A stretch of 64,000 nt of DNA, from contig DAQX01000008.1 of NCBI GenBank assembly GCA_002503055.1, forward strand, positions 459-64,458. Direction: 5' to 3'. Both the position numbers and the translations under genes were made by a program. This document shows, piece by piece, positions 12,358 to 64,000 of the stretch. This DNA is from Euryarchaeota archaeon UBA86. GTDB taxonomy: Archaea; Thermoplasmatota; Poseidoniia; Poseidoniales; Thalassarchaeaceae. Under the pieces are notes generated by a model that saw nothing but the letters and a program-made list of their open reading frames with translations, made no database searches and was not told where the DNA came from. Every line of letters starts with the position of its first letter. Position 1 is the first letter of the stretch.

Positions 12358-12380
12358 TAGAACACCTACCCAAGCAGCGA

Positions 12381-12752: not shown

Positions 12753-12832
12753 CTAGTTAGAATCCACGCGATGGCGTTTCAATTACTTTGTCTTAGAGCA
12801 GGGTTGAAGGACGTCCCAGCGTTGGGTGGTCT

Positions 12833-13762: not shown

Positions 13763-13771
13763 GGTGCTTGC

Positions 13772-14149
13772 TTGGAATCCACAGAAGATACGGGCTGGCT
13801 GAACAACAGGATAGGGGACCTATTCTATCTGCTTCACATCTGGATAACTGTGTTCTGCGCATTCGCTTGGTTGGGTCCGATTGAGTGGATGTGGTGGGGC
13901 GTATTCATCCTCTATGGGGCTACAGAGGTGTTATGGCTACTCAGAGATGACTACTGTATCATCACTGATATCGAGCGTTACTTCAGAGGAATTCCAAGAC
14001 CAGAGACGCATTTAGAACAGAACTTCATCCGCAGGCTGATTGCAACGATTTTCAGGATTGATATGAGGCCCGAGAGTGCCAAAACCTTGACTCGAACTTG
14101 GGGCAGATTGGGGTGGTTGATTGCCACCCTCAGACTCTTCGTAATCTGA
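13772..14149 (+). CDS. Hypothetical small membrane protein (possibly DUF2784-like)
   Basis: 125 aa with two or three hydrophobic helices. The family assignment is only a guess. Confidence 0.35.
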   Translation: MESTEDTGWLNNRIGDLFYLLHIWITVFCAFAWLGPIEWMWWGVFILYGATEVLWLLRDDYCIITDIERYFRGIPRPETHLEQNFIRRLIATIFRIDMRPESAKTLTRTWGRLGWLIATLRLFVI

Positions 14150-14205
14150 GTTGATAGTTCAACTTCAGGGGAAGAGGCCATTTCTGTGAACATACTCGTA
14201 GAGGC

Positions 14206-15330: not shown

Positions 15331-15468
15331 TGTGGTAGAATTATCTTTAGATTATCGTTTATTTGTGGTATTTAGTGGACATATGTGCACCCATATTGCC
15401 TATTTTGGATTAATTTACTATATTAGTGGTTAATCTAATCACAGTACATCGAAGATTTGTTGTACTAA

Positions 15469-51944: not shown

Positions 51945-52223
51945 TTGGCAAGGATTGATTGCCTCTTTACAATCTCAGGAGTTGAGCAAATGGCGTTTGA
52001 GGACCTCACCGAGTTCGAATTACGACTGCTGAAGTGGATTTCAGCATCCGACTTTGTCGGGGTTGCTTGGTCCACAAAGCGTGCAGCTGATGCGTTCAAG
52101 GTTGATGAAAAGGAGGTCTACGAGGCACTAGCATCCTTGACTGCCAAAGTTCGAGATAACATTCACATCTACTATGACGAAGGTGCAATCAGGATTGTCG
52201 CTGACGACTCACTGCCATCTTAG
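51945..52223 (+). CDS. Small hypothetical protein
   Basis: 92-aa ORF immediately after gpsA with no motif. The internal ATG (MAFEDLTEFEL...) may be the true start. It overlaps the convergent phnE-like gene end by 15 nt. Confidence 0.3.
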   Translation: MARIDCLFTISGVEQMAFEDLTEFELRLLKWISASDFVGVAWSTKRAADAFKVDEKEVYEALASLTAKVRDNIHIYYDEGAIRIVADDSLPS

Positions 52224-53090
52224 TATATCGGGAAGAATTACTCCCCACCAAGAAGGTCTATTCACATTGTCTTCTTCATTGAAGAATGATCGTGCATATA
52301 TTGAGAGGAAATCAATCAGTAGAACGGTGATGAAGATAATTATCAAGTAAGCCATGACTTTGTCATATTGCAGGAACTTGAGATATAGATTGATGTAATA
52401 TCCAATTCCACCGGCCCCTACTATTCCGATTACTGTACCGTGCCTTACATTGTACTCAAACATGAAAATAGCCTGTGAAATCAAATGATTTGCAGACTCC
52501 GGTATCACCACTCCAAGAGATTTCTCAAATTTCGATAACCCCATTGAATTCGCCGCATCTAGAGGGGCTTTGTCCATACCCTCGATAGCCTCGTACTGCA
52601 GTTTTCCTAAGTAACCGACCGTGTAAATTGTCATGGCAAAAATTCCCGATAGAGGTCCGAGTCCAATCAGAATTACGAAGAAAATTGCCCAGATTAGGCT
52701 TGGTAGACTTCTGCCAGCGGCTAAGATGAATCTGGCCAGGTATGAGATTCTTGGAGAGTTCAGATTTCTAGCCGCTAGAAGTGCTATTGGTAGAGATATA
52801 ATCATTCCAAGAATTGTTGAGACAAATGCTATCTTTATTGTCTCAATCATTCCAATCCAAGCAGTAGAGCAAGTAAAACTGAATGGTTCTGGAGTTGTAC
52901 ACACCGGATATGCCTGTGCCTCCAGAACCGTCCAATCTGGTGGCCACAAAGATTGATGGAAGAAGTCTATGAGGTTTTGAAAACTACCTGATAATCGGCC
53001 CCAATCGTCAATCATCCCGTTTAGAACAACAAAACCCGAAATGAATAGTGCGAGTAGGGCGAAAGAGTTCTTTCCGAAACCTGTAATCAT
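52209..53090 (-). CDS. phnE: ABC transporter permease, PhnE-like (phosphonate-type importer family)
   Basis: EAIEGMDKAPLDAANSMG, FEYNVRHGTVIGIVGAGGIGYYI and a terminal D..S...R pattern typical of PhnE. ATGA overlap with the ATPase gene. Confidence 0.8.
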   Translation of the reverse strand: MITGFGKNSFALLALFISGFVVLNGMIDDWGRLSGSFQNLIDFFHQSLWPPDWTVLEAQAYPVCTTPEPFSFTCSTAWIGMIETIKIAFVSTILGMIISLPIALLAARNLNSPRISYLARFILAAGRSLPSLIWAIFFVILIGLGPLSGIFAMTIYTVGYLGKLQYEAIEGMDKAPLDAANSMGLSKFEKSLGVVIPESANHLISQAIFMFEYNVRHGTVIGIVGAGGIGYYINLYLKFLQYDKVMAYLIIIFITVLLIDFLSIYARSFFNEEDNVNRPSWWGVILPDILRWQ

Positions 53091-53815
53091 AGGTTAACCT
53101 CCAGTGCTGTAGTTTCGGAAAGGAATGGATTTACCCTTCCGTCATCAATGACTAGCATCCTATCTGCCATCGATTTAGCACGAGATACATCATGCTCCAC
53201 TACGATTAGAGCTGCTTGAGTTGAACGAACATATTCAGTAACCTCGAATAATACACTATTCAATGTCTCTTCATCTAACTCACTGAGGAATTCATCTGCC
53301 ATAATCAGCCTAGGTGATTGTGCCAGAGAACGTGCAGTTGCAACTCTTCTCTGTTGCCCACCCGAGAGTCTGCGAATTGGTTCGTCAATCTTGTCTGTAA
53401 GGCCCATTCTTTCAATCGCATCTTCGGTCCTGGACAGTGACTCTGCCGACGGAGTAATTGTATGAGGATTGGTGTGGCCGGCTCTAGCCCCCATCATCAC
53501 ATTGTGCTTCACACTAGCATGACGAACCAGTCCCAATCTCTGAGGGATGTATCCTACGGATCCACGAGGCGGAAGTTTCGGAAGTATTGAATTGCAAACT
53601 TCCAATGTTCCTGTAATTGGACTTACTAATCCGGCAATTGTACGGAGAAGTGTTGTCTTGCCGACCCCTGAAGCTCCGGTGATAGCAACGATTTCTCCAG
53701 GGTATATTTTCAAATCTGGAACCTGTACTAGAGGATTTTTTGAATCAAATCCGATGGTCAAACCGCTCAATGAGACGATTGGTTTCGAATTCTGATTTTC
53801 ATTATTTCCTGTCAT
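53087..53815 (-). CDS. phnC: ABC transporter ATP-binding protein, PhnC-like
   Basis: Walker A GASGVGKTT, Q-loop GYIPQRLGL, signature LSGGQQRRVATARSL, Walker B LIMADEF. The PhnC assignment comes from translational coupling to the PhnE-like permease. ATG 53815 is preferred over TTG 53818. Confidence 0.8.
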   Translation of the reverse strand: MTGNNENQNSKPIVSLSGLTIGFDSKNPLVQVPDLKIYPGEIVAITGASGVGKTTLLRTIAGLVSPITGTLEVCNSILPKLPPRGSVGYIPQRLGLVRHASVKHNVMMGARAGHTNPHTITPSAESLSRTEDAIERMGLTDKIDEPIRRLSGGQQRRVATARSLAQSPRLIMADEFLSELDEETLNSVLFEVTEYVRSTQAALIVVEHDVSRAKSMADRMLVIDDGRVNPFLSETTALEVNL

Positions 53816-53966
53816 CAAATCGCCTTCCTTTATTCGTTGGATGCTTGATAATGTTAGACATAAATGAAATTCTGCTCATCTGCGATGCAAGATGGAATGG
53901 GTTTGCCCTTGCCGCGGATTGCACAGCAATCCGTGGACGACCAACATTTGAATGATTGTGTTAGAG

Positions 53967-53989
53967 AATTTTTCCCTTAGGGAAAAATT
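53967..53989. other. 23-nt perfect palindrome AATTTTTCCCT-T-AGGGAAAAATT in the 256-nt spacer between the lipoprotein gene and phnC
   Basis: Read directly from the sequence. The arms of 11 nt are exact reverse complements. It could be a terminator/attenuator hairpin or a protein-binding site. Confidence 0.45.
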
Positions 53990-54074
53990 GGGTTGACGGG
54001 GAGAAATCCAATTCTGAATTTCATAATTGTATGGGGTGTAACCTAAGATCTCCCCGCCAACTTTTCTATGATGC

Positions 54075-55334
54075 TTATTGGAGTGTGCCAATGTCATCAG
54101 CAGTGATGCCGAAAGCATCCCATGCAGGTTGTAAGTACATGCGAACATGTGCCTCGTAATCTGCTGTTGTGTCGCCATCATTGCTTAGATCGAATATGTC
54201 CACAATCTGAGCTGCTCCGTAGTCTGCGTAGTAGCCTGGCATTCCGCTTCCGGGGAACACAGAGGCGAATCCATTGCAGATTTCCTCGGTTGTTGCTGCT
54301 GCATATACGATGTGTCCTGCTCCCATGTTATAGCAGACCATCTCACCAGAACTTGGAGATTCGACCCAAGAGAATCCATCACAGTGTGCTGCTTCGCCTG
54401 CACCAATGTATGCCATTCCGTGAGTCTGGTTGTTGTAGCATGCATCTGTGTAGTCGGCCACATAAGCCTCGATTACTCTGAAGAATGCATGACCCTCGGC
54501 TTGGTGCTTATCGTAGTCGCCGTTTGCCTCGTCGAGATCAACAGTCATCTTTGATGCATACCTTACGGAAGCCTGTGAATAGACGATGACAATTTGCTTG
54601 AGAACCGCATCTCGAGCGTCAATCACGCCCTGCATGTCTTCATTCTCTAGTGCGGTTAGTCCGGCGTTCATTGCCGCGAGTGTGGCTACATTGGTTGCGT
54701 CGCCTGTTCCGAAGTTACCTCCTCTCTTAGCTGCAGTTGCGAAAGGTCCGCATCCGTCGTAGTCGTGGTCAGAATCATCAGGACCGTGATAGAATGCCCA
54801 TCCTTCGTCCCAAGCGTGCTGTGCATCGTCAGGGCCCCAGTTTCCTGCCTCGGCCTTGATTATGGCAGCATTGAGCTCGTGGATTGCATATGCGGTCATT
54901 ACACCGTTCTGAATTCCCTTCTCAACAGCTTGGTCTCTTACTGTGTCAGACTCGCCTGCGAATGCACCGGTGCCATCGATTGCCGCAGATACGAAGGAGT
55001 CCCATGATCCATCAACGCCATAATATGCGTCGTAGGCATGGTTCTTGCCAGAAGCGGATGCAAAGCCTTCCAAAGTCCTGAAGGATCCGTCGGACTTCTC
55101 AGCGTACTTTCCGTCCCCATAGATATCCGAAACTTCGTCCCAATCGTATGCTCCAGATAGATCCTTGATGTCACAAACATCACCCATCAGCATGCGATGG
55201 TTATCGACATTGGATGCGTACTCGTAGCCACCATCTTCGCCATCTAGTTCAATTTCATCATCACTTGTGCAACCTGCCAAAACAGATGCACAGAGAAGCA
55301 GTGTAATCAACATTGTAATTGTCTTTTTAGTCAT
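54075..55334 (-). CDS. Secreted acidic lipoprotein of unknown family, upstream of phnC/phnE-like genes; candidate metal-responsive binding protein
   Basis: Signal peptide MTKKTITMLITLLLCASVLAGC (lipobox). Conserved-looking segments FRTLEGFASASGKNHAYDAYYG, AWDEGWAFYHG and AEGHAFFRVIEAY. Two copies of the TTTAGG-N4-CCTAAA palindrome lie upstream. Confidence 0.6.
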   Translation of the reverse strand: MTKKTITMLITLLLCASVLAGCTSDDEIELDGEDGGYEYASNVDNHRMLMGDVCDIKDLSGAYDWDEVSDIYGDGKYAEKSDGSFRTLEGFASASGKNHAYDAYYGVDGSWDSFVSAAIDGTGAFAGESDTVRDQAVEKGIQNGVMTAYAIHELNAAIIKAEAGNWGPDDAQHAWDEGWAFYHGPDDSDHDYDGCGPFATAAKRGGNFGTGDATNVATLAAMNAGLTALENEDMQGVIDARDAVLKQIVIVYSQASVRYASKMTVDLDEANGDYDKHQAEGHAFFRVIEAYVADYTDACYNNQTHGMAYIGAGEAAHCDGFSWVESPSSGEMVCYNMGAGHIVYAAATTEEICNGFASVFPGSGMPGYYADYGAAQIVDIFDLSNDGDTTADYEAHVRMYLQPAWDAFGITADDIGTLQ

Positions 55335-55335
55335 T

Positions 55336-55351
55336 TTTAGGTCTCCCTAAA
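55336..55351. promoter_or_regulatory. Palindromic operator-like site TTTAGGTCTCCCTAAA (copy 1 of 4)
   Basis: TTTAGG-N4-CCTAAA inverted repeat, 2 nt upstream of the ATG of the 54075..55334 lipoprotein gene. Confidence 0.45.
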
Positions 55352-55379
55352 CCTTCGGACAGATATTCTATTTATCAAG

Positions 55380-55395
55380 TTTAGGTGGCCCTAAA
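55380..55395. promoter_or_regulatory. Palindromic operator-like site TTTAGGTGGCCCTAAA (copy 2 of 4)
   Basis: Same inverted repeat in the divergent intergenic region, 46 nt from the lipoprotein ATG and 75 nt from the DUF454 ATG. It is followed by ACTGTAAAAAAAAA, similar to the flank of copy 4. Confidence 0.5.
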
Positions 55396-55469: not shown

Positions 55470-55877
55470 ATGAACGGTGTTCATGAAGCTAAACTCAGCG
55501 AGAATAAACTGAGTAGAGTATTTTGGTTTTCTTTAGGAGTAATATTCACGGGTATTGGACTGATAGGGATTGTAGTTCCGGGTTTACCAACGACTCCCTT
55601 GATGATTCTAGCTGCTGCGTGTTTTGCAAAGTCCAGTCAGAGATTCTATGATTGGATTATCAATAACAGAATGTTTGGAGAACATGTGAAGAATTACCGA
55701 GAAGGTAATGGAATTCCTAAGAGAAGTAAGCCGGTAATTTTGGGAACAATGTGGACATTTGTGTTGTTTGCTGTTTTCATTGCAATCCCAGACAGTGCTC
55801 CCGAAATTTCGCGAAACGCAACAGTGATTTTGGCCGTGATTGGGACCATTTTTATCCTTAGAATTCCTAATTTCTAG
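55470..55877 (+). CDS. DUF454 (YbaN-like) inner-membrane protein
   Basis: IGIVVPGLPTTPLMILAAACFAKSSQRFYDWIINNRMFGEHVKNYREG matches the YbaN/DUF454 N-terminal signature. 135 aa. Confidence 0.75.
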   Translation: MNGVHEAKLSENKLSRVFWFSLGVIFTGIGLIGIVVPGLPTTPLMILAAACFAKSSQRFYDWIINNRMFGEHVKNYREGNGIPKRSKPVILGTMWTFVLFAVFIAIPDSAPEISRNATVILAVIGTIFILRIPNF

Positions 55878-56901
55878 GTAAAGGATGCAAAAATGCATTC
55901 TTTACAAGTTGTCCCAATCCTTGAATCCAACTCGGATCATCATTCAGACAACTGACGACGGTCAATTCTTTTCCGCCATGTTCCAAGAAATGTTCGCGGA
56001 TTTCGATATCTAGCTCTTCCAATGTTTCCAGGCCATCGGCGAGAAATGCGGGGGAGACAATGACGATCTTAGATTTCCCATTTTTAGCCAAATGCTCAAC
56101 CATTTTTGTGGTTGATGGTTGTAGCCATTTTGCGGGACCAAGACGACTTTGGTAACTCATCGACCAGTCTGATTCAGCAATCCCCAGAGCTCCGACTACA
56201 GACAATGTTGTGAGCATGCAGTGGTGAGCATAGCACATGGAATTACCCTCTACTTTGAGTTCGCAGCAATGTTCAACCTTCTGGCAGTGTTTACCACTTG
56301 AGTCGGCGCGTTTCACATGAGAAACTGGGAGGCCGTGATAGGAGAACAATAAGTGCGCTCCATCCGTCAAATGTGGATGAATTGATTTTGCCAATGGATC
56401 GATGAATTCTGGGTTGGTTGGAAAATGTGGCAATTGAGTAATAGAAGGATTCCAATTCATCTCTTTGAGTTGAAAATATGCATGTTTCAGCGAAGATTCG
56501 GTTGTCGCCTGTGCATGATGAGGAAACATTGGAGCGAGTAATAGTTCGTCGATTCCTGATTGTTTCAATTTCTCTAATCCTGAACGAATACTAGGATTCC
56601 CATAGCGCATTCCGACTTCACAACGAATATCTCCCAAACTAGATTCTAATGCGTCAGTCATTCTTTGAGTGTAGACACGGAGAGGCGAACCTTCTTGCAT
56701 CCATATACTCTCATATCTAGGTGCAATTTTCTTTGGGCGTGTTCTGAGGATTATTCCATGTACCAAAAGGTGTCGAAGAGGAGTAGGGATATCGATAACA
56801 TCGGGGTCGAGTAGAAATTCTCGAAGATATGTGCGAACAGAGGGTACCGTAGGTTCATCGGGCGTACCGATGTTCATTATCAGAACGCCTCTCTTAACCA
56901 C
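55867..56901 (-). CDS. hemH: Ferrochelatase
   Basis: GVLIMNIGTPDEP, VRTYLREFLLDPDVIDIP, RPKKIAPRYESIW..GSPL, FSYHGLPV and YQSRLGP..WLQPST motifs. GTG start. Confidence 0.9.
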   Translation of the reverse strand: MVKRGVLIMNIGTPDEPTVPSVRTYLREFLLDPDVIDIPTPLRHLLVHGIILRTRPKKIAPRYESIWMQEGSPLRVYTQRMTDALESSLGDIRCEVGMRYGNPSIRSGLEKLKQSGIDELLLAPMFPHHAQATTESSLKHAYFQLKEMNWNPSITQLPHFPTNPEFIDPLAKSIHPHLTDGAHLLFSYHGLPVSHVKRADSSGKHCQKVEHCCELKVEGNSMCYAHHCMLTTLSVVGALGIAESDWSMSYQSRLGPAKWLQPSTTKMVEHLAKNGKSKIVIVSPAFLADGLETLEELDIEIREHFLEHGGKELTVVSCLNDDPSWIQGLGQLVKNAFLHPLPRN

Positions 56902-56946: not shown

Positions 56947-58158
56947 CTACAATTCTGAATTGACTTCAGCTAGTTGGATTATCGATCCATCCCATCCAAA
57001 AACAATCAATTGATTGGCATGACCCTTACCAAAACCAACTATCATTTTCCCTGCCGTACCTATGAGATTATTCTCCCAAGTTCCACTAGAATTACTAATT
57101 GCCCAAATCGATCCGGAGCAAAAGTCACCATAGATATACGAGTCTCGCAGAGAAGATGGCCCCCAGTCCATCCAGAAACCTCCTGTGATTGAGCAGTTTC
57201 CATTGGTGTGTGGATATGTATGAATTATCTCTGGAGTTGAAATTGAACTATTGAAATTACATTCCCCTCCAGCTACGAAATTTTGTGGACCTTCCATTTC
57301 AGACCAACCGAAGTTGGTTGATTGCAGCATAGGAACTAAATTCACTTCTTCCCAACAATTCTGACCTACATCTGAGATCCAGAGACGGTTATCGGTGTCC
57401 ATGTCGAATCTCCAAGGATTCCTCAATCCATAGTGTAGAATGTATGGATCTTCGCCTGGTGATGAGATTGATGTAGAAGGAGAAATTTGGTAACCATCAA
57501 AGGAAAAGAGCAGGATTGAACCTAGTTTTGTTGATTCGTTCTGGCCGTGCCCTTCCGGATCATTAGCACTTCCTCCGTCCCCTATACCCCAGAGAAATTC
57601 TCCATTTCCAATTGAAACTAGATGGCCTCCGTTGTGATTGCGGTAGGGTTGCTCGATTTCCATTAAAACGGTAATTGATTCTAAATTCAGATTGTTCTGA
57701 GCATCAATTTCAGCATATGCCAAAATTAGATTGGATTGGTTTGGGCCGTCACATGGCCCAGACTCTATGTATGAGAGAAGGACTTTGTTTGAGTTCTCAA
57801 AATCGTCATCGAAGGCAAATCCCAGCAGTCCTTGCTCCATGTGGCATCTTCCAATCAAGGAGCTCAAATCTGCTACATTTGTTCCTGGGTTATTTGCATC
57901 AAAATTGGATTCAGTTGGCCAAGAAATGATAAAACCGTTCAGATCAATAATCCATAACTCATCAGAATATGGATGTTCTAAAGATAGAATTGGATTCATT
58001 AGTCCGTTGAGATATTCTAAACATTCCAATTCATATTCTTCGACAATGTTGCAATCAGATGCAATGACATCTGGCCATTCGTATTCATCTGAATCATCAG
58101 AAAGGCATCCGCATAAGACGGGAACCACCAACAATAGGGAAATGGCCAGAACTCGCAT
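56947..58158 (-). CDS. Secreted lipoprotein, PQQ-dependent glucose/sorbosone dehydrogenase-like beta-propeller (GSDH/YliI family)
   Basis: Signal peptide MRVLAISLLLVVPVLCGC. NHNGGHL, GDGGSANDPEGHGQN, LGSILL, GLRNPWRF, DVGQNCWEEVN and NFGW motifs. ATG 58158 lies 2 nt after the stop of the upstream transferrin-like gene. Confidence 0.8.
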   Translation of the reverse strand: MRVLAISLLLVVPVLCGCLSDDSDEYEWPDVIASDCNIVEEYELECLEYLNGLMNPILSLEHPYSDELWIIDLNGFIISWPTESNFDANNPGTNVADLSSLIGRCHMEQGLLGFAFDDDFENSNKVLLSYIESGPCDGPNQSNLILAYAEIDAQNNLNLESITVLMEIEQPYRNHNGGHLVSIGNGEFLWGIGDGGSANDPEGHGQNESTKLGSILLFSFDGYQISPSTSISSPGEDPYILHYGLRNPWRFDMDTDNRLWISDVGQNCWEEVNLVPMLQSTNFGWSEMEGPQNFVAGGECNFNSSISTPEIIHTYPHTNGNCSITGGFWMDWGPSSLRDSYIYGDFCSGSIWAISNSSGTWENNLIGTAGKMIVGFGKGHANQLIVFGWDGSIIQLAEVNSEL

Positions 58159-58160
58159 AC

Positions 58161-59210
58161 TCAAGAGAAGTAAGCCTGTATTCCTGGTACATTGGACACC
58201 GCGGCTGCGTATGTCCCCAAGTGGTCTTCAGCGTTTGCAGGTGACATTCCTTCGGTGTTTAGCAAATCTTTCAGGATTTGTCTCCCCTCTTCATCATCAT
58301 CAAGTGCAATCACTGCATTTTGAACTGCTAGAACTGTATCTTCATCCATATATTCTGGATTGTAGAGAACTGGGTGACTTGGCGCTTGACCAAATGCAGG
58401 TAGCATCACCACATCGTCCCTATCCAAGCACCAATCATTAGCGTCTGAACCAGTACAATAGCTATCGTAAACAGTATCCTTGGCAAGGGTAATGTCTCCT
58501 GTTCCGTCCATCATGCACCTTAGGGCTCCCTTGTAGCCAGAGTAAGGTGTGCCGCCCTCAGGGATACTCGAGTCTTCTGAGAAGAAGTTGGTCACGGTGG
58601 CCCTGAGTGAATCAATATCATTGGGGTCTCCGATTACTTCCGCGTATTCATTACCGATTAGATAGCCCATTGGGATTAGCATACCAGCACTCTTGAGCCA
58701 ACCGGTGTGGCACGAAGTCTTGCCCTCCATAAGAGCAAAGGGGTCTGTTTCAGGATCATCATCGAGATAAGCTGCTGCCATGTCCGAATCTGCCCTTACC
58801 CAAGCTGCGGCATTGTAGTAAGTCCTCCCATCTGACTTATGCTCGGCTGCTAGCACATCTAGCCCATACACTTCCCAAGCTAACCAAGCTGCGGCTCCAT
58901 CCACGAACCCGATATCGGCGTTACCCTTGTCGATTGCCTCGATGGTTGCAGCCTCATCGGCTACTGCATAAATCTCCACATCCATGTCTAATAGTTCACT
59001 TAGTCTATCTGCAAGATGTTGTGGATTATTATCCCAGATGAGGTAAGTATCCTTAACCTCGTAAGCTACTACTAGGCAGTTTTCATCGTCATCACACTGA
59101 TCATAGTTCACATCAAAAATGAAGTACAGAGTAGATGCTATGATTACCATCCCTGCTGCAATATAAGTCCAATTTTCCTTTGCTGATAGGAACTCTCTTA
59201 CTCGGTTCAT
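58161..59210 (-). CDS. Membrane-anchored single-lobe transferrin-family / PhnD-fold iron-binding protein homologue
   Basis: N-terminal signal-anchor helix. Block-wise match by eye to the human serotransferrin N-lobe. NADIGFVDGAAAW matches EADAVTLDAGLVY. RTYYNAAAWVRADS matches TFYYAVAVVKKDS. GKTSCHTGWLKSAGMLIPMGYL matches [28 protein letters not shown] matches VANFFS. YSGYKGALRCMMDGTGDI matches YFGYSGAFKCLKDGAGDV. QAPSHPV matches QVPSHTV. ATG 59210 is preferred over ORF-track TTG 59222. Confidence 0.85.
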   Translation of the reverse strand: MNRVREFLSAKENWTYIAAGMVIIASTLYFIFDVNYDQCDDDENCLVVAYEVKDTYLIWDNNPQHLADRLSELLDMDVEIYAVADEAATIEAIDKGNADIGFVDGAAAWLAWEVYGLDVLAAEHKSDGRTYYNAAAWVRADSDMAAAYLDDDPETDPFALMEGKTSCHTGWLKSAGMLIPMGYLIGNEYAEVIGDPNDIDSLRATVTNFFSEDSSIPEGGTPYSGYKGALRCMMDGTGDITLAKDTVYDSYCTGSDANDWCLDRDDVVMLPAFGQAPSHPVLYNPEYMDEDTVLAVQNAVIALDDDEEGRQILKDLLNTEGMSPANAEDHLGTYAAAVSNVPGIQAYFS

Positions 59211-59240
59211 GGGGGTGCGCAAACGATATCAAATAAAATG

Positions 59241-59256
59241 TTTAGGGGGCCCTAAA
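59241..59256. promoter_or_regulatory. Palindromic operator-like site TTTAGGGGGCCCTAAA (copy 3 of 4)
   Basis: Same inverted repeat, 31 nt upstream of ATG 59210 of the transferrin-like gene. Confidence 0.5.
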
Positions 59257-59294
59257 TTAGAAAGAGATGTCTAATTTTATTCTAAATTAGGTAG

Positions 59295-61616
59295 CTAATC
59301 CAGTAATAGAAGACTTAGTTGCATTAGTGCAGCTCCGAAAGTCATTCCCACAATCATGAATCTGGGTCTTTCTTGGATCAACGCCTGGGGTATTAATTCC
59401 TTGAAACTGACTACTGCCATAATTCCTCCAACAAATGCCAATGACAACCCTACAATAAAGGGAGACAAAATTGATCCGAGAATAAGTAACGCGAACAATG
59501 CTCCAATTGGCTCGGTCAGGCCGGTTGCCAATGCAATCATTACAGCCTTAAATTTCCCTCCGCCACCGGCCTGAATGGGAGCTGCTACAGCTATTCCTTC
59601 TGGGATATTGTGCAGTCCGATAGCGACCATCAGAACGATCCCATATTGGGCTGATTCAAGTACGGCAACACCTATCGCAAGACCTTCGGGGAAGTTATGA
59701 ATTCCCAGAGCAATCGCCGTGAAAATTCCAGACATGTACATTTTCTTCTTCTCTGTCATTTCCTCGTCAATGTTGTTTTTTCTAAGTAGAATATTTGCTA
59801 GAAAAACTATAGATGCCCCGATTGCAAAAGAAATTGAAATCCCGATAAAGCCGAATTCCATTGCTTGCCCTAGCCATAAATCAAATATGGAAATGAGGAG
59901 CATTACGCCGGCAGCCATCCCAAGCATGAATGACATCATTTCTCTGCTTATTTCTTTAATTAAAATTACAATTAGGCCCCCTATGCCTGTCGCTAACCCA
60001 GCCATTAGAGCTATCATAAATGGGAAAACCCATGATTCGGAATTCCCTTCTAGACTTTTAATCTCAATTATTGGGCTATCTTCGGCTATTAGGTTCAAGG
60101 ATTGAACCATCTCAAGAACAAAATTAGTGACCAATTCAGCACCCTCTTTGTCGATTAATTCACCTTGTGAATCAATATCGAGATTATTGCTAAAGTCTGT
60201 ACAAAATGGCCAAATCTCTGAGGAGGTTGCATCCAATCTCTGGAAGCCTATGCCAACTGTGTCGATGCCTGCGTGATTGAAACTCCTATGGCTGCTACAG
60301 CCTTGAATAGAGTCAATGGAAGGATTGTTAGCGATAACATTAGCAGAATATTGACCGGCCCCTCCAAAAGTAGTCTTGGCAGAAGATTTGGCTTTAGAAA
60401 CAAGAACATTGTTGGATGCCTCTACTGTAATTGAGTCAATGCCCATGGCTTCATTGAGAATTGCTGAATCGATGTTGATGTATAACTCCGGCTTTTGACT
60501 TTCTTCGATCTGATCAAGGAAAGCTTGACTACTGAGCCATCCAAGTTCCTCACCGCCCCATGAAACAAATTTCACAGTTCTATCTAGTTCTCTACCATTC
60601 AATTGTCTAGCGATTTCGACAAGTTGTGCCACGCCTATCGAATTGTCTACTTGACCTTCGCTCAAGTAAGAAGTGTCGTGATTGGCGCCAATCATTACTG
60701 ATTTGGAGGATTTTCCGGGCAATTCTCCAGTTACAATCTGTACATTAGTGACGCCGGTCTGGGCCGCTTCCCAATTGCCGTCAAGAATCGCATACTTTGA
60801 TCCATCCGATTCTGCCTCATCGATGAACTCTATGAAAGTCTGAGCAGTTTCATGTGTGATGAATATGAATGGTATCAAATCGTAATCTGGGAAAGCTTCG
60901 GGGAATGAGATTAGCCTATCATCATCAGTCAGAACTACTATCGGTTCAAAGTATGTCGATTCCAGTTCCTCCTCGTAAATCATCAGAACTGATGCTCCCG
61001 CTTCTATTGCTTCTCTGTAATAATCAGAAAGGCTTCTGCCAGTATTCTCTATTTCATGGTGAATCAGAATTGCCTTATCCGTAAGATCTCCCGAGTTGGT
61101 AAAATCTTCCGAGGTCCCACTTCCTAGATTTACCATCTCGCTATCATGTTTGTGAGAACCTCCAGAATAACCAAGAAAAGTGAATGCATCCCTGTGCTCC
61201 AAGTCGCCTGTAGAAGAAATCTGAACTCTGCCTGTCCCTGCCGAACCATCTGGAAGTCCGGGGATATTGCCGATACCCTGCTCTATTTGCGCATGCATAT
61301 GGATTGGTTCATCACCTTCATCGGGCTCTACAAGCCATGAGCCCCAAATCTCAAATTCTGTAATTTGTACATCAGATAGTCCTGCATCTTCAAACATCTC
61401 TGAGATAATAATTGATGCTTCCATCTCCGAGTTAGAACCAGGAACTCTGGGCCCAAGGGAACTTAGATTACTTGACTCCTCTAGAATTTTATCTCCATCT
61501 GAATGAAACTCAATAGATGGCTCGTGAAGAATGAAACCAGCTGCAAATGAAGAAATGAGTACGACGGCGGAAATTATTCCAAGAGTGTTTATTCTCCTAT
61601 AGGGGTCGTATTCCAT
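59295..61616 (-). CDS. Fusion protein: N-terminal TM anchor + extracytoplasmic PA-domain-containing M28-family metallopeptidase-like domain + C-terminal ZIP (ZupT-like) metal transporter
   Basis: M28 features: LGPRVPGS, VTGELPGK..VMIGANHDT, GQVDNSIGVAQLVEIAR, FVSWGGEELGW, YINIDS, SSHRSF. A PA-like insert (GDLTDKAILIHH...AIEAGASVLMIY). The ZIP part (about the last 245 aa) has GIHNFPEGLAIGVA and GLHNIPEGIAVAAP. Confidence 0.85.
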   Translation of the reverse strand: MEYDPYRRINTLGIISAVVLISSFAAGFILHEPSIEFHSDGDKILEESSNLSSLGPRVPGSNSEMEASIIISEMFEDAGLSDVQITEFEIWGSWLVEPDEGDEPIHMHAQIEQGIGNIPGLPDGSAGTGRVQISSTGDLEHRDAFTFLGYSGGSHKHDSEMVNLGSGTSEDFTNSGDLTDKAILIHHEIENTGRSLSDYYREAIEAGASVLMIYEEELESTYFEPIVVLTDDDRLISFPEAFPDYDLIPFIFITHETAQTFIEFIDEAESDGSKYAILDGNWEAAQTGVTNVQIVTGELPGKSSKSVMIGANHDTSYLSEGQVDNSIGVAQLVEIARQLNGRELDRTVKFVSWGGEELGWLSSQAFLDQIEESQKPELYINIDSAILNEAMGIDSITVEASNNVLVSKAKSSAKTTFGGAGQYSANVIANNPSIDSIQGCSSHRSFNHAGIDTVGIGFQRLDATSSEIWPFCTDFSNNLDIDSQGELIDKEGAELVTNFVLEMVQSLNLIAEDSPIIEIKSLEGNSESWVFPFMIALMAGLATGIGGLIVILIKEISREMMSFMLGMAAGVMLLISIFDLWLGQAMEFGFIGISISFAIGASIVFLANILLRKNNIDEEMTEKKKMYMSGIFTAIALGIHNFPEGLAIGVAVLESAQYGIVLMVAIGLHNIPEGIAVAAPIQAGGGGKFKAVMIALATGLTEPIGALFALLILGSILSPFIVGLSLAFVGGIMAVVSFKELIPQALIQERPRFMIVGMTFGAALMQLSLLLLD

Positions 61617-61645
61617 GGCTTCCGCAAGAGAAGTGGTTCTAATAA

Positions 61646-61661
61646 TTTAGGTAGCCCTAAA
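61646..61661. promoter_or_regulatory. Palindromic operator-like site TTTAGGTAGCCCTAAA (copy 4 of 4)
   Basis: Same inverted repeat, 30 nt upstream of ATG 61616 of the M28-ZIP fusion gene, followed by ACTACAAAAAAAA. Confidence 0.5.
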
Positions 61662-62276
61662 CTACAAAAAAAATAGCCATTTTGGCTTGGAAAGTAACCA
61701 AAGCAATTTTGATTTTGAAGCATTAAACAAGTCTACCCGGTGTCTTCTGACCCTAACCAACTTAGTATTCGATTTTCGGAGTCTCTCATGCCAATATTCT
61801 CTGGAGTTCTTTGGGAAGGATTTCTCAAATCTAGCCGGAGACGCCATTAGAGTAAAGTTTTGATTTCTTCTGACATTTTCCACTACCTTTTCTCTACCTT
61901 CTTCAGTAAGCAGGCTTTTCACCTCGATCATTACTTTCTCTGGTCTTTCATTGAGTATTTCTAGAACTTCACTTAGAGTTGGAATAGAAATTCCTAGTGT
62001 CCTTCCGAGTTCTTGGATTTGGACTAAAGTGAGATGATTTAGAATGTGTGATTTACCATCTATGTGAATCTCATCATCATGGAATACGAATATCTCAGAA
62101 TCTGAAGATTCGTGAATATCAAACTCCCAATATCTGAAATTTCGAAGATTGAAGATGGTATTTTCAATTGAATCTTTTAGAGATTGGATTGTATTCTCGA
62201 GTGGAGTTCCAGAACCTCCTAATCTGTGACCAAGATTCTTCAATAATTCACCTATATATCGCGAAGATATCGACAT
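61662..62276 (-). CDS. Glycerophosphodiester phosphodiesterase-family (GDPD) protein, short form
   Basis: GHRLGGSG..LENT and WEFDIHESSDSEIFVFHDDE match the GDPD HR...EN / E.D...D...v.HD pattern. AT-rich gene. Confidence 0.6.
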   Translation of the reverse strand: MSISSRYIGELLKNLGHRLGGSGTPLENTIQSLKDSIENTIFNLRNFRYWEFDIHESSDSEIFVFHDDEIHIDGKSHILNHLTLVQIQELGRTLGISIPTLSEVLEILNERPEKVMIEVKSLLTEEGREKVVENVRRNQNFTLMASPARFEKSFPKNSREYWHERLRKSNTKLVRVRRHRVDLFNASKSKLLWLLSKPKWLFFL

Positions 62277-62318
62277 TAATGAGTTTGTTTTCGATTGCTA
62301 GCCTGAGACGATAGTATC

Positions 62319-64000
62319 ATGATGCTAACCTGCGCTAGAACACTCATGAAGATGGCACAGGTTGTCGTTGCCCTCTCGCTCGTCTTTGTCCTGGTGATGA
62401 GTTTAGTTTGTCCCTACAGTCATTCGGACAGCAACCTCACAGAGGAGTCTCTGCGAATGGAGCAATTCGGTGGCGGAGGTTCTCTAGAGGATCAGTGCGG
62501 CTCGATAACATTCGAAGATATGTTCGAGTATACCAATGCGGAGTTTGTTTTCAATGTCAATCCGAATTGGCAAACCGCTGAAGTACAGGCAGTTGCTTGG
62601 ATTAACGAATCTTTGGCAGATGACATCAGGACTACTATGGACGAGTTCATGGCCGAGATTGATCCGAATGACGGAGGCGATGGTTGGTTGTCGACCGATG
62701 AGCGCGAAATCTTCAGAGCGTTGGCCAGCGAGTGTATAGAGCACACTCTTACTCGGATAGGAATTAGAGATGGCGACTATCACAGAGGTGGCGAGGGAGT
62801 CAGTTGGAAGAATACAAGTTGGGAAGAAGACGGAGTCGAAATTCAAGAATTCAACATTGTACCACCTAGGCACTCAGAGATTAGAGAATGCACATCCGCT
62901 TTCGGGAACGAATGTGAGGAAATCCCGGTTATACCCGACGATAATCGAGACTGTGATACCGACATTTCTTCCTCTGATGGAATTGATGAATGCCGTGTCC
63001 AGCTTTGGTTGAATGCCACAATGACCATCCCGGGTGTGACTGATGGAAATCAATTTACTCTGGCCCTCAATGCTTCGAATATGACTCGATCAAGTCTAGA
63101 GTTCAACTTCCCGGTTACACCTGATTTACGCCTAGATATGTGGGAGGAGTGTGAGGGTAGAGATGTAAGCTTCGATGAGGAGTCGTCAATTCCCGCTCCA
63201 ATTCGTGGAACCTGTTTAGGCGATGGTTCCTCATCGTATACTCTCGAAGAACTAGAAACACTCACGGGTGAAGAAAGACTTCGATTCACTATTATGCCAG
63301 ATGCAGAAATCGATGACTGGCCACTAGGTGAGGACTTATTCGCTGATTTCACTACCGCCCCTATTCCCGTAGATGAGCATCCAGAATGGACCGTGGATGC
63401 TCCAGTCGACGGTGCATGGTTCCCGTCCCCGAGCGGTGGTCAGCACATATGGGCAGACTGGGATGACATATCTTCTTGGTTCTCAGATGAGGGTAGTGTG
63501 ACTCAATTGGATATTCGTTGCACTGGTGCAGATTCTCTACAATTGAGCGAGGGTGCTGACCGTTCATTATGGGCCGAGATTCCTAGAGGAAGTCCCGGAG
63601 AAGTCACATGCGAAGCAGTGGATTCTGCGGGCCAGAGTTCTGGTCAGAGAACCTGGAATCTTGGAGTTCCATTCTCTATTGGCACATCTCAAGCGACTTT
63701 GGCTGAACCGCATCCGATTTCTATCACGCCTACTTCACAATGGCCTGCATTGCAACTTGAATTGGCTTTGATTCAGGACGGTCAGGCATCCACACCGACA
63801 TCCATCACCTTCGAAGAAGAAGTTGTGGTAGATTTGACGGCATCGAACATGGTGCCGGGAGAAGTTGATGTCTGGATAAGAATACAAGGAAGTTCGAATG
63901 TGTACTCAATGGAACATATCTATGATATTGATCTGACTAAAGAGAGTTCTCCGCCAATGCTGACTATCACCAATTCAGATTGGGATGGAGCAGAATGGTC
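62319..64000 (+). CDS. Large acidic, Cys-containing secreted protein, 3' end beyond window (absent from the ORF track because no stop codon lies in the window)
   Basis: I translated the + frame starting at ATG 62319 (an in-frame TGA lies at 62304). It is open to nt 64000. It begins MMLTCARTLMKMAQVVVALSLVFVLVMSLV (signal-like) and is followed by acidic, N-glycosylation-sequon-rich sequence. ATG 62346 is an alternative start. Confidence 0.6.
   Translation, partial: MMLTCARTLMKMAQVVVALSLVFVLVMSLVCPYSHSDSNLTEESLRMEQFGGGGSLEDQCGSITFEDMFEYTNAEFVFNVNPNWQTAEVQAVAWINESLADDIRTTMDEFMAEIDPNDGGDGWLSTDEREIFRALASECIEHTLTRIGIRDGDYHRGGEGVSWKNTSWEEDGVEIQEFNIVPPRHSEIRECTSAFGNECEEIPVIPDDNRDCDTDISSSDGIDECRVQLWLNATMTIPGVTDGNQFTLALNASNMTRSSLEFNFPVTPDLRLDMWEECEGRDVSFDEESSIPAPIRGTCLGDGSSSYTLEELETLTGEERLRFTIMPDAEIDDWPLGEDLFADFTTAPIPVDEHPEWTVDAPVDGAWFPSPSGGQHIWADWDDISSWFSDEGSVTQLDIRCTGADSLQLSEGADRSLWAEIPRGSPGEVTCEAVDSAGQSSGQRTWNLGVPFSIGTSQATLAEPHPISITPTSQWPALQLELALIQDGQASTPTSITFEEEVVVDLTASNMVPGEVDVWIRIQGSSNVYSMEHIYDIDLTKESSPPMLTITNSDWDGAEW

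What the first reader, a model, noticed from the sequence alone, without database searches (positions are those of the whole stretch)
59295..61616. PA-domain M28 peptidase-like ectodomain fused to a ZupT-like ZIP metal transporter, adjacent to the transferrin homologue
A single 773-codon ORF encodes three parts: an N-terminal TM anchor, an extracytoplasmic M28 domain of about 490 aa with a protease-associated (PA) insert, and a complete ZIP permease with two HN(F/I)PEG motifs. The topology is self-consistent: N-in anchor, ectodomain outside, and a ZIP N-terminus outside. The metazoan transferrin receptor ectodomain belongs to the same PA-containing M28 lineage as glutamate carboxypeptidase II. 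This gene is transcribed immediately upstream of the transferrin-like gene and carries the same operator palindrome. That suggests the ectodomain could be a docking or processing module that hands metal from the transferrin-like protein to the ZIP channel. Most M28 metal ligands look retained (DN, EE, D and H motifs). The first His motif is shifted (GANHDT versus GAHxDS), so the domain could still be an active aminopeptidase instead.
Basis: partly seen in the sequence, partly recalled or inferred. Interest (0 to 1): 0.85.

Follow-up and report, generated by a model that had tools for sequence, protein, structure and literature searches.

The report
Peptidase-like ectodomain fused to ZIP metal importer
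Abundant ocean archaea (Marine Group II) carry a real, conserved gene that joins an outward-facing aminopeptidase-like domain to a ZIP metal-uptake channel and switches it with the same DNA operator as their iron-scavenging genes, but the idea that the outer domain is a transferrin receptor is not supported.

Summary
The 773-codon ORF (59295..61616, minus strand) is real. It encodes an N-in TM anchor, a PA + M28 aminopeptidase-like ectodomain and a complete 8-TM ZupT-like ZIP. The fusion is full length in 20 protein clusters (49-97% identity) and many independent assemblies, all from Candidatus Poseidoniales. An exhaustive search found no fusion outside this family. Its closest relatives are about 480-aa standalone archaeal PA-M28 proteins.

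A palindrome, TTAGG-N4-CCTAA, lies 30-45 nt upstream of the gene in 15 of 16 loci. In the window it occurs only four times: before this gene, the transferrin-like gene and the FEA1-like gene. The gene therefore belongs to a metal-starvation regulon, most likely for iron.

The transferrin-receptor reading is weak. The best fold matches are bacterial PA-aminopeptidases (BSAP, 2ek8), not TfR, and there is no helical domain. The transferrin-like gene usually occurs without the fusion and sits next to a PhnC/PhnE-type ABC importer, its natural partner.

In the window's species the first zinc-ligand His is Asn, and this is fixed. Two sister lineages lack the bridging Asp. The PA insert carries invariant fusion-specific His motifs and is more conserved than the catalytic core.

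I infer a built-in metal-capture module. It is a new variant of known kinds.

The parts
59295..61616 (-). Whole M28-ZIP fusion gene (773 codons plus stop)
   Evidence: ORF list. Pfam M28 and Zip on one polypeptide. Full-length homologues in 20 clusters.
61521..61595 (-). N-terminal signal-anchor TM helix (residues 8-32), preceded by RR (N-in)
   Evidence: Hydropathy window 8-32. AlphaFold helix 5-29.
61332..61520 (-). N-terminal segment of the M28 fold (residues 33-95)
   Evidence: Alignment to BSAP and 2ek8 N-terminal segments. Alignment A2 with standalone relatives.
60747..61331 (-). PA-like (apical) insert, residues 96-290. It is the most conserved part of the ectodomain.
   Evidence: Foldseek best hits are PA-aminopeptidases. 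Local alignment to the 2ek8 PA core. Mean pairwise identity is 62% against 50-52% for the M28 core. No Pfam PA hit.
61140..61301 (-). Fusion-specific invariant motifs: HMHAQIEQG, the loop GIGNIPGLPDGSAGTGR, and HKHD (residues 106-159)
   Evidence: Translation. MHAQxEQG (MHGQ in the P0017 cluster) and HKHD are present in every full-length member. His106 is Leu in clade E. The motifs are absent from standalone relatives.
60087..60746 (-). M28 catalytic-type core (residues 291-510), with Asp325, Glu356/357, Asp383 and His443
   Evidence: Pfam PF04389. Ligand mapping on SGAP and BSAP. Alignment A1.
60681..60683 (-). Asn312 codon at the position of the first zinc-ligand His (GANHDT; family consensus GAHHDS)
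   Evidence: Translation. SGAP His85 aligns to this Asn. The change is fixed in 15 of 15 listed members of the species-level cluster.
60039..60086 (-). Conserved linker P-I-I-x-I-x-x-L-E-G-x-S (residues 511-526) joining the ectodomain to ZIP TM1
   Evidence: 59% mean pairwise identity; P515 and E523 are invariant. Low pLDDT.
59298..60038 (-). ZupT-like ZIP permease, 8 TM helices (residues 527-773). The HNFPEG and HNIPEG metal-site motifs lie at 59595..59699.
   Evidence: Pfam Zip and NCBIfam ZupT. BbZIP alignment. Helices in the model. Translation. Standalone ZupT homologues at about 40% identity.
61647..61660 (.). Operator palindrome TTAGGTAGCCCTAA, 31-44 nt upstream of the fusion gene's ATG, abutting an A/T-rich TATA-like stretch
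   Evidence: The same motif lies at the same distance upstream of the fusion gene in 15 of 16 other loci.
59242..59255 (.). Same operator upstream of the transferrin-like gene
   Evidence: It also lies upstream of Tf genes in L011-L014.
55337..55394 (.). Two copies of the operator (55337..55350 and 55381..55394) in the FEA1-like / DUF454 divergent intergenic region
   Evidence: The operator lies upstream of Fea1 genes in L012-L014.
58161..59210 (-). Co-regulated neighbour: TM-anchored monolobal transferrin-like / PhnD-fold binding protein
   Evidence: Pfam Transferrin and Phosphonate-bd. The best PDB sequence hits are lactoferrins and transferrins.
52209..55334 (-). Co-regulated neighbours: FEA1-related lipoprotein (54075..55334), PhnC-like ATPase (53087..53818), PhnE-equivalog permease (52209..53090)
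   Evidence: NCBIfam NF038033 at 345.7 bits. Pfam ABC_tran and BPD_transp_1. TIGR01097 PhnE at 227 bits, above the 216.7 cut-off.

Best explanation
This is a lineage-specific transporter of Candidatus Poseidoniales (Marine Group II archaea). It is a ZupT-type ZIP divalent-metal importer whose N-terminus carries a large extracytoplasmic PA + M28 aminopeptidase-like domain, held in the membrane by an extra N-in TM helix.

Shown:
- The architecture is real and conserved.
- The ectodomain descends from standalone membrane-anchored archaeal PA-M28 proteins.
- The gene has its own promoter-proximal palindromic operator, TTAGG-N4-CCTAA. This operator is also found before the transferrin-like, FEA1-like and PhnCE-type ABC genes, and before a Fea1-flavodoxin gene pair in L012.

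Inferred:
- A metal-dependent repressor, probably of the DtxR/MntR family, binds the operator where it abuts the TATA/BRE region. It shuts the gene off when metal is replete. The protein is therefore made under metal starvation, most likely iron starvation.
- The ZIP domain then imports a divalent cation (Fe2+, possibly also Zn2+ or Mn2+).
- The ectodomain sits over the outer mouth of the ZIP and acts as a built-in metal-handling module. It captures or concentrates scarce metal and passes it down the conserved linker into the channel. Capture would use its M28 metal site and the fusion-specific invariant His/Asp/Glu motifs of the PA insert. In members with an intact active site, it may also free metal from peptide ligands.
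- In the window's own lineage the canonical di-zinc site is degraded (His to Asn). Binding, not proteolysis, is therefore the likely selected function there.
For: Architecture and reality of the fusion.

Narrow distribution and origin: exhaustive phmmer against 1.84 billion representatives found one fusion representative. The next hits were 460-490 aa standalone TM-anchored PA-M28 proteins at 30-37% identity.

Regulon:
- Four exact operator sites in the window, all before FEA1-like, Tf-like and fusion genes.
- An exact site 30-45 nt upstream of the fusion gene in 15 of 16 other loci, with a one-mismatch version in L003.
- Sites before Tf, Fea1 and ABC genes in L011-L014.
- Only 1 hit in 678 kb of unrelated ZupT loci.

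Iron context:
- FEA1-related lipoprotein, transferrin homologue and ferrochelatase in the window.
- In L010, a haem-biosynthesis operon, a HugZ-like gene, flavodoxin and a FecCD-type ABC system flank the fusion.
- In L012 a flavodoxin gene lies directly downstream of Fea1 on the same strand.
- A DtxR/MntR-family gene lies 2 kb from the fusion in L016. Another lies divergently adjacent to the closest standalone ectodomain relative in L102.

A non-proteolytic role in this lineage:
- N312 replaces the His85-equivalent ligand and is fixed.
- P0002 and P0003 lack the canonical bridging Asp.
- The PA insert (62%) and the linker (59%) are more conserved than the M28 core (50-52%).
- The MHAQxEQG and HKHD motifs and a conserved extended loop are specific to the fusion family.
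Against: - No experiment or expression data exist. The metal specificity of ZupT-type ZIPs is broad, and the nearby regulator scores best as MntR-like, so Mn or Zn cannot be excluded.
- The regulator-operator link is inferred from resemblance to DtxR/IdeR half-sites (own knowledge) and from gene proximity in one locus.
- 13 of the 17 aligned family members keep every catalytic residue, including the general-base Glu. This is equally consistent with an active aminopeptidase.
- In P0002 and P0003 an acidic residue sits one position later and might substitute for the missing Asp.
- The spatial clustering of the His motifs and their position relative to the ZIP mouth could not be checked, because model coordinates are not exposed.
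- Interdomain confidence is modest (pTM 0.60) and the linker has low pLDDT.
Confidence: 0.5

Rival explanations
1. Transferrin-receptor-like docking. The PA-M28 ectodomain binds the holo form of the neighbouring transferrin-like (or FEA1-like) protein. After release or reduction, iron passes to the fused ZIP. This would be a one-polypeptide analogue of TfR plus ZIP14.
For: - The transferrin homologue is genuine and immediately downstream.
- The two genes share an operator.
- The order GDPD / fusion / Tf / GSDH recurs in a second clade, L004-L006.
- TfR1 and GCPII are significant fold matches (E about 1e-16).
- The type II orientation and a degraded metal site parallel TfR.
- The PA insert is unusually conserved, as expected for a binding surface.
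- In mammals ZIP14 can export transferrin-derived Fe2+ (PMC7972479).
Against: - The Tf-like gene is absent from the flanks of most fusion loci.
- It is found without the fusion in 4 of 4 Tf-centred loci.
- There are 636 Tf clusters against 20 fusion clusters.
- A cognate-type PhnC/PhnE ABC importer is co-regulated and adjacent to Tf genes.
- The closest folds are BSAP and 2ek8, not TfR, and there is no helical or TFR_dimer domain.
- The clade that has Tf adjacent (P0004-6) keeps an intact catalytic site, so ligand loss does not track Tf adjacency.
- The fusion gene sits in either orientation between GDPD and Tf. That looks like insertion into an iron gene island rather than an operon partnership.
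Confidence: 0.12
2. Working ecto-aminopeptidase tethered to a ZIP. The ectodomain trims extracellular peptides as other MGII M28 enzymes are assumed to do. The fusion either couples destruction of peptide-type metal ligands to uptake of the released metal, or merely anchors the enzyme.
For: - The full ligand set and the EE motif are present in 13 of 17 aligned members.
- The closest structures are active aminopeptidases.
- The nearest relatives are standalone canonical M28 proteins.
- MGII genome papers count M28 proteins among extracellular peptidases (PMC6864105 and PMC6336850).
Against: - Three neighbouring lineages each carry a different non-canonical residue at a metal ligand.
- The catalytic core is the least conserved part of the ectodomain.
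- The gene is controlled by the operator of metal-uptake genes, not linked to peptide transport.
- Fusion-specific invariant motifs lie outside the active-site motifs.
Confidence: 0.25
3. Reverse coupling. The ZIP domain lets cytoplasmic metal out to metallate its own ecto-enzyme in metal-poor seawater.
For: ZIPs are passive carriers. Some family members move iron out of the cytosol (Drosophila ZIP13, title and abstract seen). An extracellular metalloenzyme in picomolar-metal seawater does face a loading problem.
Against: Co-regulation with uptake proteins (Tf-like, FEA1-like, ABC importer) under one operator argues for import under starvation. The enzyme site is degraded in the window's lineage while the ZIP motifs stay invariant.
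Confidence: 0.05

Closest known systems
ZupT / GufA-type ZIP transporters (E. coli ZupT; BbZIP structures 5TSA, 8GHT)
   Same: The complete 8-TM ZIP core has the two HNxPEG metal-site motifs. The ZupT profile is matched end to end. About 40% identity to standalone bacterial ZupT proteins.
   Different: Known ZupT proteins are about 250-270 aa with no ectodomain. This one has a 495-residue N-terminal extracytoplasmic domain and a ninth TM helix. The score is below the NCBIfam equivalog cut-off.
PA-domain M28 aminopeptidases: Bacillus subtilis BSAP/YwaD (6HC6), Aneurinibacillus aminopeptidase (2EK8), Pseudomonas PaAP (8ACK)
   Same: These are the best fold matches (E 4e-21 to 1e-18; TM-score 0.72-0.74 normalised by the target for 2ek8 and BSAP, 0.49-0.57 for PaAP). 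They share the two-domain M28 core with a PA insert at the same position.
   Different: Those enzymes are soluble, secreted and catalytically complete. Here the domain is membrane-tethered at both ends. It carries extra invariant His-rich motifs and a longer hairpin loop. In the window's species it has Asn at the first zinc-ligand His.
Transferrin receptor 1 / glutamate carboxypeptidase II (M28B)
   Same: Type II orientation, an M28-like core with a PA/apical insert, and partial loss of metal ligands as in TfR. The fold match is significant (E about 1e-16).
   Different: There is no C-terminal helical dimerisation domain. The fold match is weaker than to bacterial aminopeptidases (TM-score 0.44-0.48 normalised by the target). 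Most family members keep the catalytic residues. No evidence of transferrin binding exists.
LIV-1 subfamily ZIPs with large extracellular domains (e.g. ZIP4, ZIP14) (own knowledge)
   Same: A ZIP core preceded by a sizeable N-terminal extracytoplasmic domain thought to assist or regulate metal acquisition.
   Different: The ectodomain fold is unrelated (helix-rich/PAL-motif domains against PA-M28). Those proteins are eukaryotic, and their ZIP core belongs to a different subfamily.
ERMP1/FXNA and yeast Pff1: M28 domains fused to polytopic membrane domains (own knowledge)
   Same: An M28 domain covalently joined to a multi-pass membrane domain.
   Different: Their membrane domain is not a ZIP. 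They are eukaryotic endomembrane proteins with no known transport role.

Membership tests
ZIP (Zrt/Irt-like) metal transporters, Pfam PF02535 | Profile match above the curated threshold | tested here: met
   Zip scores 92.5 bits against a cut-off of 35.1. BbZIP matches at E 1.6e-15 over residues 530-766.
ZIP (Zrt/Irt-like) metal transporters, Pfam PF02535 | Eight TM helices with conserved metal-site motifs in TM4 and TM5 (HNxPEG type in the ZupT/GufA group) | tested here: met
   Eight helices between residues 530 and 772 in the model. HNFPEG and HNIPEG are present and invariant in the family.
ZIP (Zrt/Irt-like) metal transporters, Pfam PF02535 | Divalent-metal transport activity | not testable with these tools
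   Needs uptake assays.
ZupT equivalog (NCBIfam NF003243) | Whole-protein score above the equivalog cut-off (252 bits) | tested here: not met
   189.7 bits, although the profile is covered at positions 3-265 of 266. The protein is ZupT-like, not a ZupT equivalog.
Peptidase family M28 | Profile match above the curated threshold, and the M28 fold | tested here: met
   PF04389 scores 72.5 bits against 21.3. Foldseek matches 2ek8, BSAP and PaAP at E<=1e-17.
Peptidase family M28 | Complete co-catalytic zinc ligand set (His, Asp, Glu, Asp, His) plus the general-base Glu | tested here: not met
   In the window's protein Asn312 aligns with SGAP His85. Asp325, Glu356/357, Asp383 and His443 are present. 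The set is complete in 13 of 17 aligned family members.
Peptidase family M28 | Aminopeptidase activity | not testable with these tools
   Needs an enzyme assay.
PA (protease-associated) domain, Pfam PF02225 | Profile match | tested here: not met
   No PA hit even at E<=10.
PA (protease-associated) domain, Pfam PF02225 | A PA-fold insert between the first strand and the rest of the M28 core | tested here: met
   The model superposes on PA-containing 2ek8 and BSAP over about 490-500 columns (TM-score 0.72-0.74 normalised by the target). A local alignment matches the 2ek8 PA core, YS...GDL..KA.LI...A...GA...IY.
Transferrin receptor / GCPII lineage (M28B) | C-terminal helical dimerisation domain (TFR_dimer) | tested here: not met
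   No Pfam hit at E<=10. After the last M28 helix only a 16-residue linker (511-526) precedes ZIP TM1.
Transferrin receptor / GCPII lineage (M28B) | Closest structural relatives are TfR or GCPII | tested here: not met
   TfR1 and GCPII rank below the bacterial PA-aminopeptidases, with TM-score 0.44-0.48 against 0.72-0.74 (normalised by the target).
Transferrin receptor / GCPII lineage (M28B) | Binds transferrin | not testable with these tools
   Gene co-occurrence is loose. No complex prediction was available.
DtxR/IdeR/MntR-type metal-responsive regulon | A palindromic operator recurring at promoters of metal-uptake genes | tested here: met
DtxR/IdeR/MntR-type metal-responsive regulon | The operator is bound by a DtxR-family protein in a metal-dependent way | not testable with these tools
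   Only circumstantial. DtxR-family genes lie near the fusion in L016 and next to a standalone relative in L102. None is found in the window.

The most novel reading that the evidence does not exclude
The ectodomain is a prokaryotic counterpart of the transferrin receptor. It docks the co-regulated archaeal transferrin-like (or FEA1-like) iron carrier at the cell surface and feeds the released, reduced iron straight into its own ZIP channel. That would be TfR and ZIP14 in one polypeptide. The conserved Tf-GSDH pair could supply the reductive release step.
Probability: 0.1. Interest if true: 0.9.

Novelty: new variant of a known kind. Interest (0 to 1): 0.6.

Why it matters
Marine Group II archaea are among the most abundant planktonic archaea, are uncultured, and live where iron and zinc are scarce. 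This gene shows they have a dedicated, operator-controlled metal importer of a design not described in the literature searched. It is a ZIP channel with a built-in peptidase-derived outer domain.

It sits in a regulon that also contains transferrin-like and FEA1-like proteins otherwise associated with eukaryotes. If the ectodomain is a metal-capture or ligand-processing module, it offers a compact model for how ZIP transporters obtain substrate at picomolar metal. It would also be a natural example of a peptidase drifting towards a binding role, as happened in the transferrin receptor.

It also warns that MGII 'extracellular M28 peptidases' and 'lactoferrin-like peptidases' counted in genome surveys may include metal-acquisition proteins.

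Tried and rejected
- Pfam scan of the ectodomain at E<=10 for PA or TFR_dimer found nothing.
- The metagenome-contig scan with alignment A1 was wasted for its purpose. The tool chose the ZIP HNxPEG motifs as patterns and returned 80 generic ZupT loci with no fusion loci. I reused them only as a negative control for the operator.
- The ZIP-domain-only protein search did not list the known fusions. It gave fragments plus standalone ZupT proteins, so it revealed no other ectodomain-ZIP architectures.
- Contexts of two standalone ectodomain relatives (P0023, P0024) were uninformative.
- Seven literature searches found no description of an M28-ZIP fusion or of MGII iron uptake.
- Rfam and tRNA scans found nothing relevant near the gene.
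- An apparent interruption of the Tf gene in L005 is only a run of N.
- Assembly artefact was rejected.
- I could not inspect model coordinates or predicted aligned error. The geometry of the His motifs and the ectodomain-ZIP interface therefore remains untested.
- I did not attempt a chimeric complex prediction. Only 3-4 paired sequences exist and no interface score is returned.


Full report
**1. The observation**

The ORF 59295..61616 (minus strand) is intact: 773 codons with an ATG start.

- Pfam places Peptidase_M28 on residues 295-457 (E 4.9e-20) and Zip on 617-767 (E 3.7e-26). Both are far above their curated cut-offs.
- The NCBIfam ZupT profile is covered at positions 3-265 of 266 by residues 527-772 (E 5.7e-56). 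The score of 189.7 bits is below the equivalog cut-off of 252.
- The sequence aligns with the crystallised BbZIP at E 1.6e-15.
- It contains HNFPEG and HNIPEG at 59595..59699.
- Hydropathy and the AlphaFold model give one N-terminal helix (residues 8-32, after an RR motif) and eight helices in the ZIP part.

ZIP N-termini are extracytoplasmic (established knowledge of the family). The N-in anchor / ectodomain out / ZIP topology is therefore self-consistent.

**2. The PA insert and the fold**

Pfam finds no PA or TFR_dimer domain, even at E<=10. The AlphaFold2 model was built on 17 family sequences (mean pLDDT 78.3, pTM 0.60).

| PDB match | E-value | TM-score (normalised by the target) |
|---|---|---|
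| 2ek8 | 4e-21 | 0.72 |
| BSAP/YwaD (6hc6, 6hc7) | about 1e-18 | 0.73-0.74 |
| PaAP | 4e-18 to 5e-17 | 0.49-0.57 |
| TfR1, GCPII | about 1e-16 | 0.44-0.48 |

A local sequence alignment also matches the PA core of 2ek8. The insert (residues 96-290) is therefore a diverged PA/apical domain. The ectodomain is a two-domain BSAP-type fold. After the last M28 helix only a 16-residue linker (511-526) precedes ZIP TM1, so no TfR-like helical domain exists.

**3. The metal ligands**

Aligned to Streptomyces griseus aminopeptidase (1cp7) and BSAP:
- Asn312 falls on His85.
- Asp325 falls on Asp97.
- Glu356/Glu357 fall on Glu131/132.
- Asp383 falls on Asp160.
- His443 falls on the SDH histidine.

The family consensus is GAHHDS / VDNA / GGEELG / NLDS / SDH. 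That is a complete catalytic set, seen in 13 of 17 aligned members. The window's GANHDT is thus a His-to-Asn substitution at a ligand. The retained His313 is the variable middle position.

The substitution is fixed in all 15 listed members of the >=90% identity cluster. It is not a sequencing error. The two next-closest lineages lack the canonical bridging Asp: P0002 has PTES and P0003 has KKDA. Three neighbouring lineages therefore carry three different departures from the canonical site.

**4. Is the fusion real, and how widespread is it?**

- Twenty protein clusters at 49-97% identity cover the full length and carry PF04389 plus PF02535.
- In the species-level cluster, the 15 members listed (of 24) are all 773 aa. 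Together they lie on more than 40 contigs from NCBI, JGI, ENA, Tara and Logan.
- Seven species-representative genomes carry it. All are Candidatus Poseidoniales or 'Euryarchaeota/Methanobacteriota archaeon' MAGs.
- An exhaustive phmmer of the ectodomain against 1.84 billion representatives found one fusion representative (P0005, E 4e-120). The next full-length hits were 460-490 aa proteins at 30-37% identity.
- Those proteins are TM-anchored, canonical PA-M28 proteins without a ZIP. One is on an archaeal contig.
- The ZIP domain's nearest standalone relatives are bacterial ZupT proteins at about 40% identity.

The fusion is real, ancient within Poseidoniales and, as far as HMMER can see, confined to them. 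I found no paper that describes it. MGII genome papers count M28 proteins, and a 'lactoferrin-like' class, among extracellular peptidases (PMC6864105 and PMC6336850).

**5. What distinguishes the fused ectodomain**

Compared with the standalone relatives, the fusion family has three features:
- a longer hairpin loop, GIGNIPGLPDGSAGTGR;
- the motif HMHAQ(I/L)EQG;
- the motif HKHD at the start of the first PA strand.

MHAQxEQG (MHGQ in the P0017 cluster) and HKHD are present in every full-length family member. His106 is Leu in clade E.

| Region | Mean pairwise identity |
|---|---|
| ZIP | 73% |
| PA-like insert | 62% |
| Linker (PIIxIxxLEGxS) | 59% |
| M28 core | 50-52% |

For a plain peptidase the catalytic core should be the best conserved part of the ectodomain. 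Here it is the least conserved. I could not examine coordinates. Whether H108, H141, H155, H157 and D158 form one site, and where it lies relative to the ZIP mouth, remains an inference.

**6. Regulation**

It occurs exactly four times in the 64 kb window (1.2 expected even with one mismatch allowed):
- 61647, which is 31-44 nt before the fusion's ATG;
- 59242, which is 32-45 nt before the transferrin-like ATG at 59210;
- 55337 and 55381, in the FEA1-like / DUF454 intergenic region.

An exact copy lies at the same distance upstream of the fusion gene in 15 of 16 other loci. L003 has a one-mismatch version. In Tf-centred loci it precedes Tf, Fea1 and ABC genes.

In 678,517 nt of 80 unrelated ZupT loci it occurs once. 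That single hit lies 22-35 nt before a Firmicute ZupT start.

In every case the right half-site abuts an A/T-rich stretch about 25-30 nt before the ATG. If transcripts are leaderless or nearly so, as is common in archaea (own knowledge), the site overlaps BRE/TATA. An occupant would then repress.

The half-sites resemble the TTAGG...CCTAA ends of DtxR/IdeR boxes (own knowledge). A DtxR/MntR-family gene lies 2 kb from the fusion in L016. Another is divergently adjacent to P0022, the closest standalone relative of the ectodomain. None is in the window.

**7. Which metal?**

The co-regulated or neighbouring genes point to iron:
- an FEA1-related lipoprotein (NF038033, 345.7 bits);
- a true transferrin homologue, whose best PDB sequence hits are lactoferrins and transferrins (E 6e-22), with the Asp, Tyr, Thr and Tyr ligand motifs aligned, and by eye a PSH motif like that holding transferrin His249;
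- ferrochelatase;
- in L012, a flavodoxin gene directly downstream of Fea1 on the same strand;
- in L010, a haem-biosynthesis operon, a HugZ-like gene, flavodoxin and a FecCD-type ABC system around the fusion.

Two points argue for caution. ZupT-type ZIPs are broad-range carriers (own knowledge). The L016 regulator scores best as MntR-like. Iron is therefore the most likely substrate but is not shown.

**8. The transferrin-docking idea**

Adjacency holds in the window and in clade L004-L006. There the order GDPD / fusion / Tf / GSDH is kept, but the fusion gene is inverted and shares one operator with the divergent Tf gene.

It does not hold in several other fusion loci:
- L001, where an acyl-CoA dehydrogenase is upstream;
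- L008/9, L010, L015, L016 and L098/99.

Starting from the Tf side, four of four loci show GDPD-Tf-GSDH or ABC/Fea1-Tf-GSDH with no fusion. The Tf family is about thirty times richer in clusters (636 against 20).

The Tf-like protein has a PhnD-type fold. The window's permease (52209..53090) passes the PhnE equivalog cut-off, and the ATPase is PhnC-like. The same ABC pair sits directly beside Tf genes in L012-L014, and the L014 locus includes a bilobal 672-aa transferrin-like protein.

The simplest reading is that the Tf-like protein is the binding protein of that ABC importer. On this reading the fusion gene is a separate, self-contained member of the same regulon that has been inserted into the iron gene island in some lineages. 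Physical docking is not excluded, but nothing here calls for it.

**9. Conclusion**

The best-supported account is a metal-starvation-induced ZupT-type importer. Its PA-M28-derived ectodomain has been recruited as a built-in metal-handling module, and its proteolytic chemistry has become dispensable in the window's lineage.

The main rival is that the ectodomain is still a working aminopeptidase, possibly freeing metal from peptide ligands.

The components are known families. The combination, its regulation and its restriction to Marine Group II archaea are new.

Noticed in passing
window 58161..59210 (-): TM-anchored monolobal transferrin homologue. Its best PDB sequence matches are vertebrate lactoferrins and transferrins (E 6e-22). 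The Asp (vDGa), Tyr (tYYnA), Thr/Lys (SCHTGwlKSAG) and Tyr (GYkGA) motifs are aligned, and by eye there is a PSH motif like that holding transferrin His249. The family is very common in MGII (636 clusters). It is probably what a MGII genome paper counted as a 'lactoferrin-like' extracellular peptidase (PMC6336850).
   Followed up: partly
window 52209..53818 (-); L012 5381..6922; L014 829..2402: A PhnE-equivalog permease plus a PhnC-like ATPase lie downstream of the FEA1-like gene and, in other loci, directly beside transferrin-like genes under the same operator. This suggests a Fe(III) ABC importer built from a phosphonate-type transporter, with a transferrin-like binding protein.
   Followed up: partly
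window 56947..58164 (-); L004-L006, L011-L014: A GSDH-type (PQQ sugar dehydrogenase-like beta-propeller) lipoprotein gene immediately follows the transferrin-like gene in every locus examined. This is a conserved Tf-GSDH pair of unknown role, possibly reductive iron release.
   Followed up: no
window 54075..55334 (-) and 55337..55394: FEA1-related lipoprotein (NF038033, 345.7 bits) with two copies of the operator in its upstream region. The region is shared with the divergent DUF454 gene (55470..55877). In L012 a flavodoxin gene follows the Fea1 gene on the same strand.
   Followed up: partly
L014 2507..4525 (-); proteins P0171-P0178, P0240: Bilobal or extended transferrin-like proteins (450-672 aa, two Transferrin/Phosphonate-bd hits) exist in related archaea alongside the monolobal form.
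   Followed up: no
L004 3412..7411, L005, L006 versus window 58161..62276: The fusion gene lies between the same neighbours (GDPD-like and Tf-like) but in the opposite orientation in clade L004-L006. In L011 and L014 those neighbours are directly adjacent with no fusion gene. This looks like insertion or inversion of a self-contained gene cassette with its own operator.
   Followed up: partly
L016 8393..9049 (-); L102 179..829 (-): DtxR/MntR-family regulator genes. One lies 2 kb from the fusion gene. The other is divergently adjacent (64-nt spacer containing the palindrome ATAAGCGgattGCGCTTAT) to the closest standalone relative of the ectodomain (P0022). This hints that the M28 subfamily was metal-regulated before the fusion.
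   Followed up: partly
L054 2188..2201 and 2223..3014: The only exact operator match in 678 kb of unrelated ZupT loci lies 22-35 nt before the start of a standalone ZupT in a Firmicute-like contig (sporulation stage III-like neighbours by eye, AGGAGG ribosome site). It may be a related DtxR-type box, or chance.
   Followed up: no
L016 1726..3793; L098 3421..5545; L099 2405..4529: Two conserved genes (450-469 aa and 236-245 aa) with no Pfam or NCBIfam family lie directly upstream of the fusion gene on the same strand in one clade.
   Followed up: no
L010 38..8225 and 12352..16631: In one clade the fusion gene sits between a complete haem-biosynthesis operon with ferrochelatase and a HugZ-like / flavodoxin / FecCD-type ABC cluster. 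In the window, ferrochelatase (55867..56901) also lies inside the iron gene cluster.
   Followed up: no
window 48141..50660 (-): An 839-aa protein with EF-hand pairs and an LDL-receptor class A module. These domains are unusual for an archaeon.
   Followed up: no
window about 62307..64000 (+): A long open frame (at least 564 codons, hydrophobic N-terminus) runs off the end of the window, divergent from the GDPD-like gene. It is not in the ORF list because it is cut by the window end.
   Followed up: no
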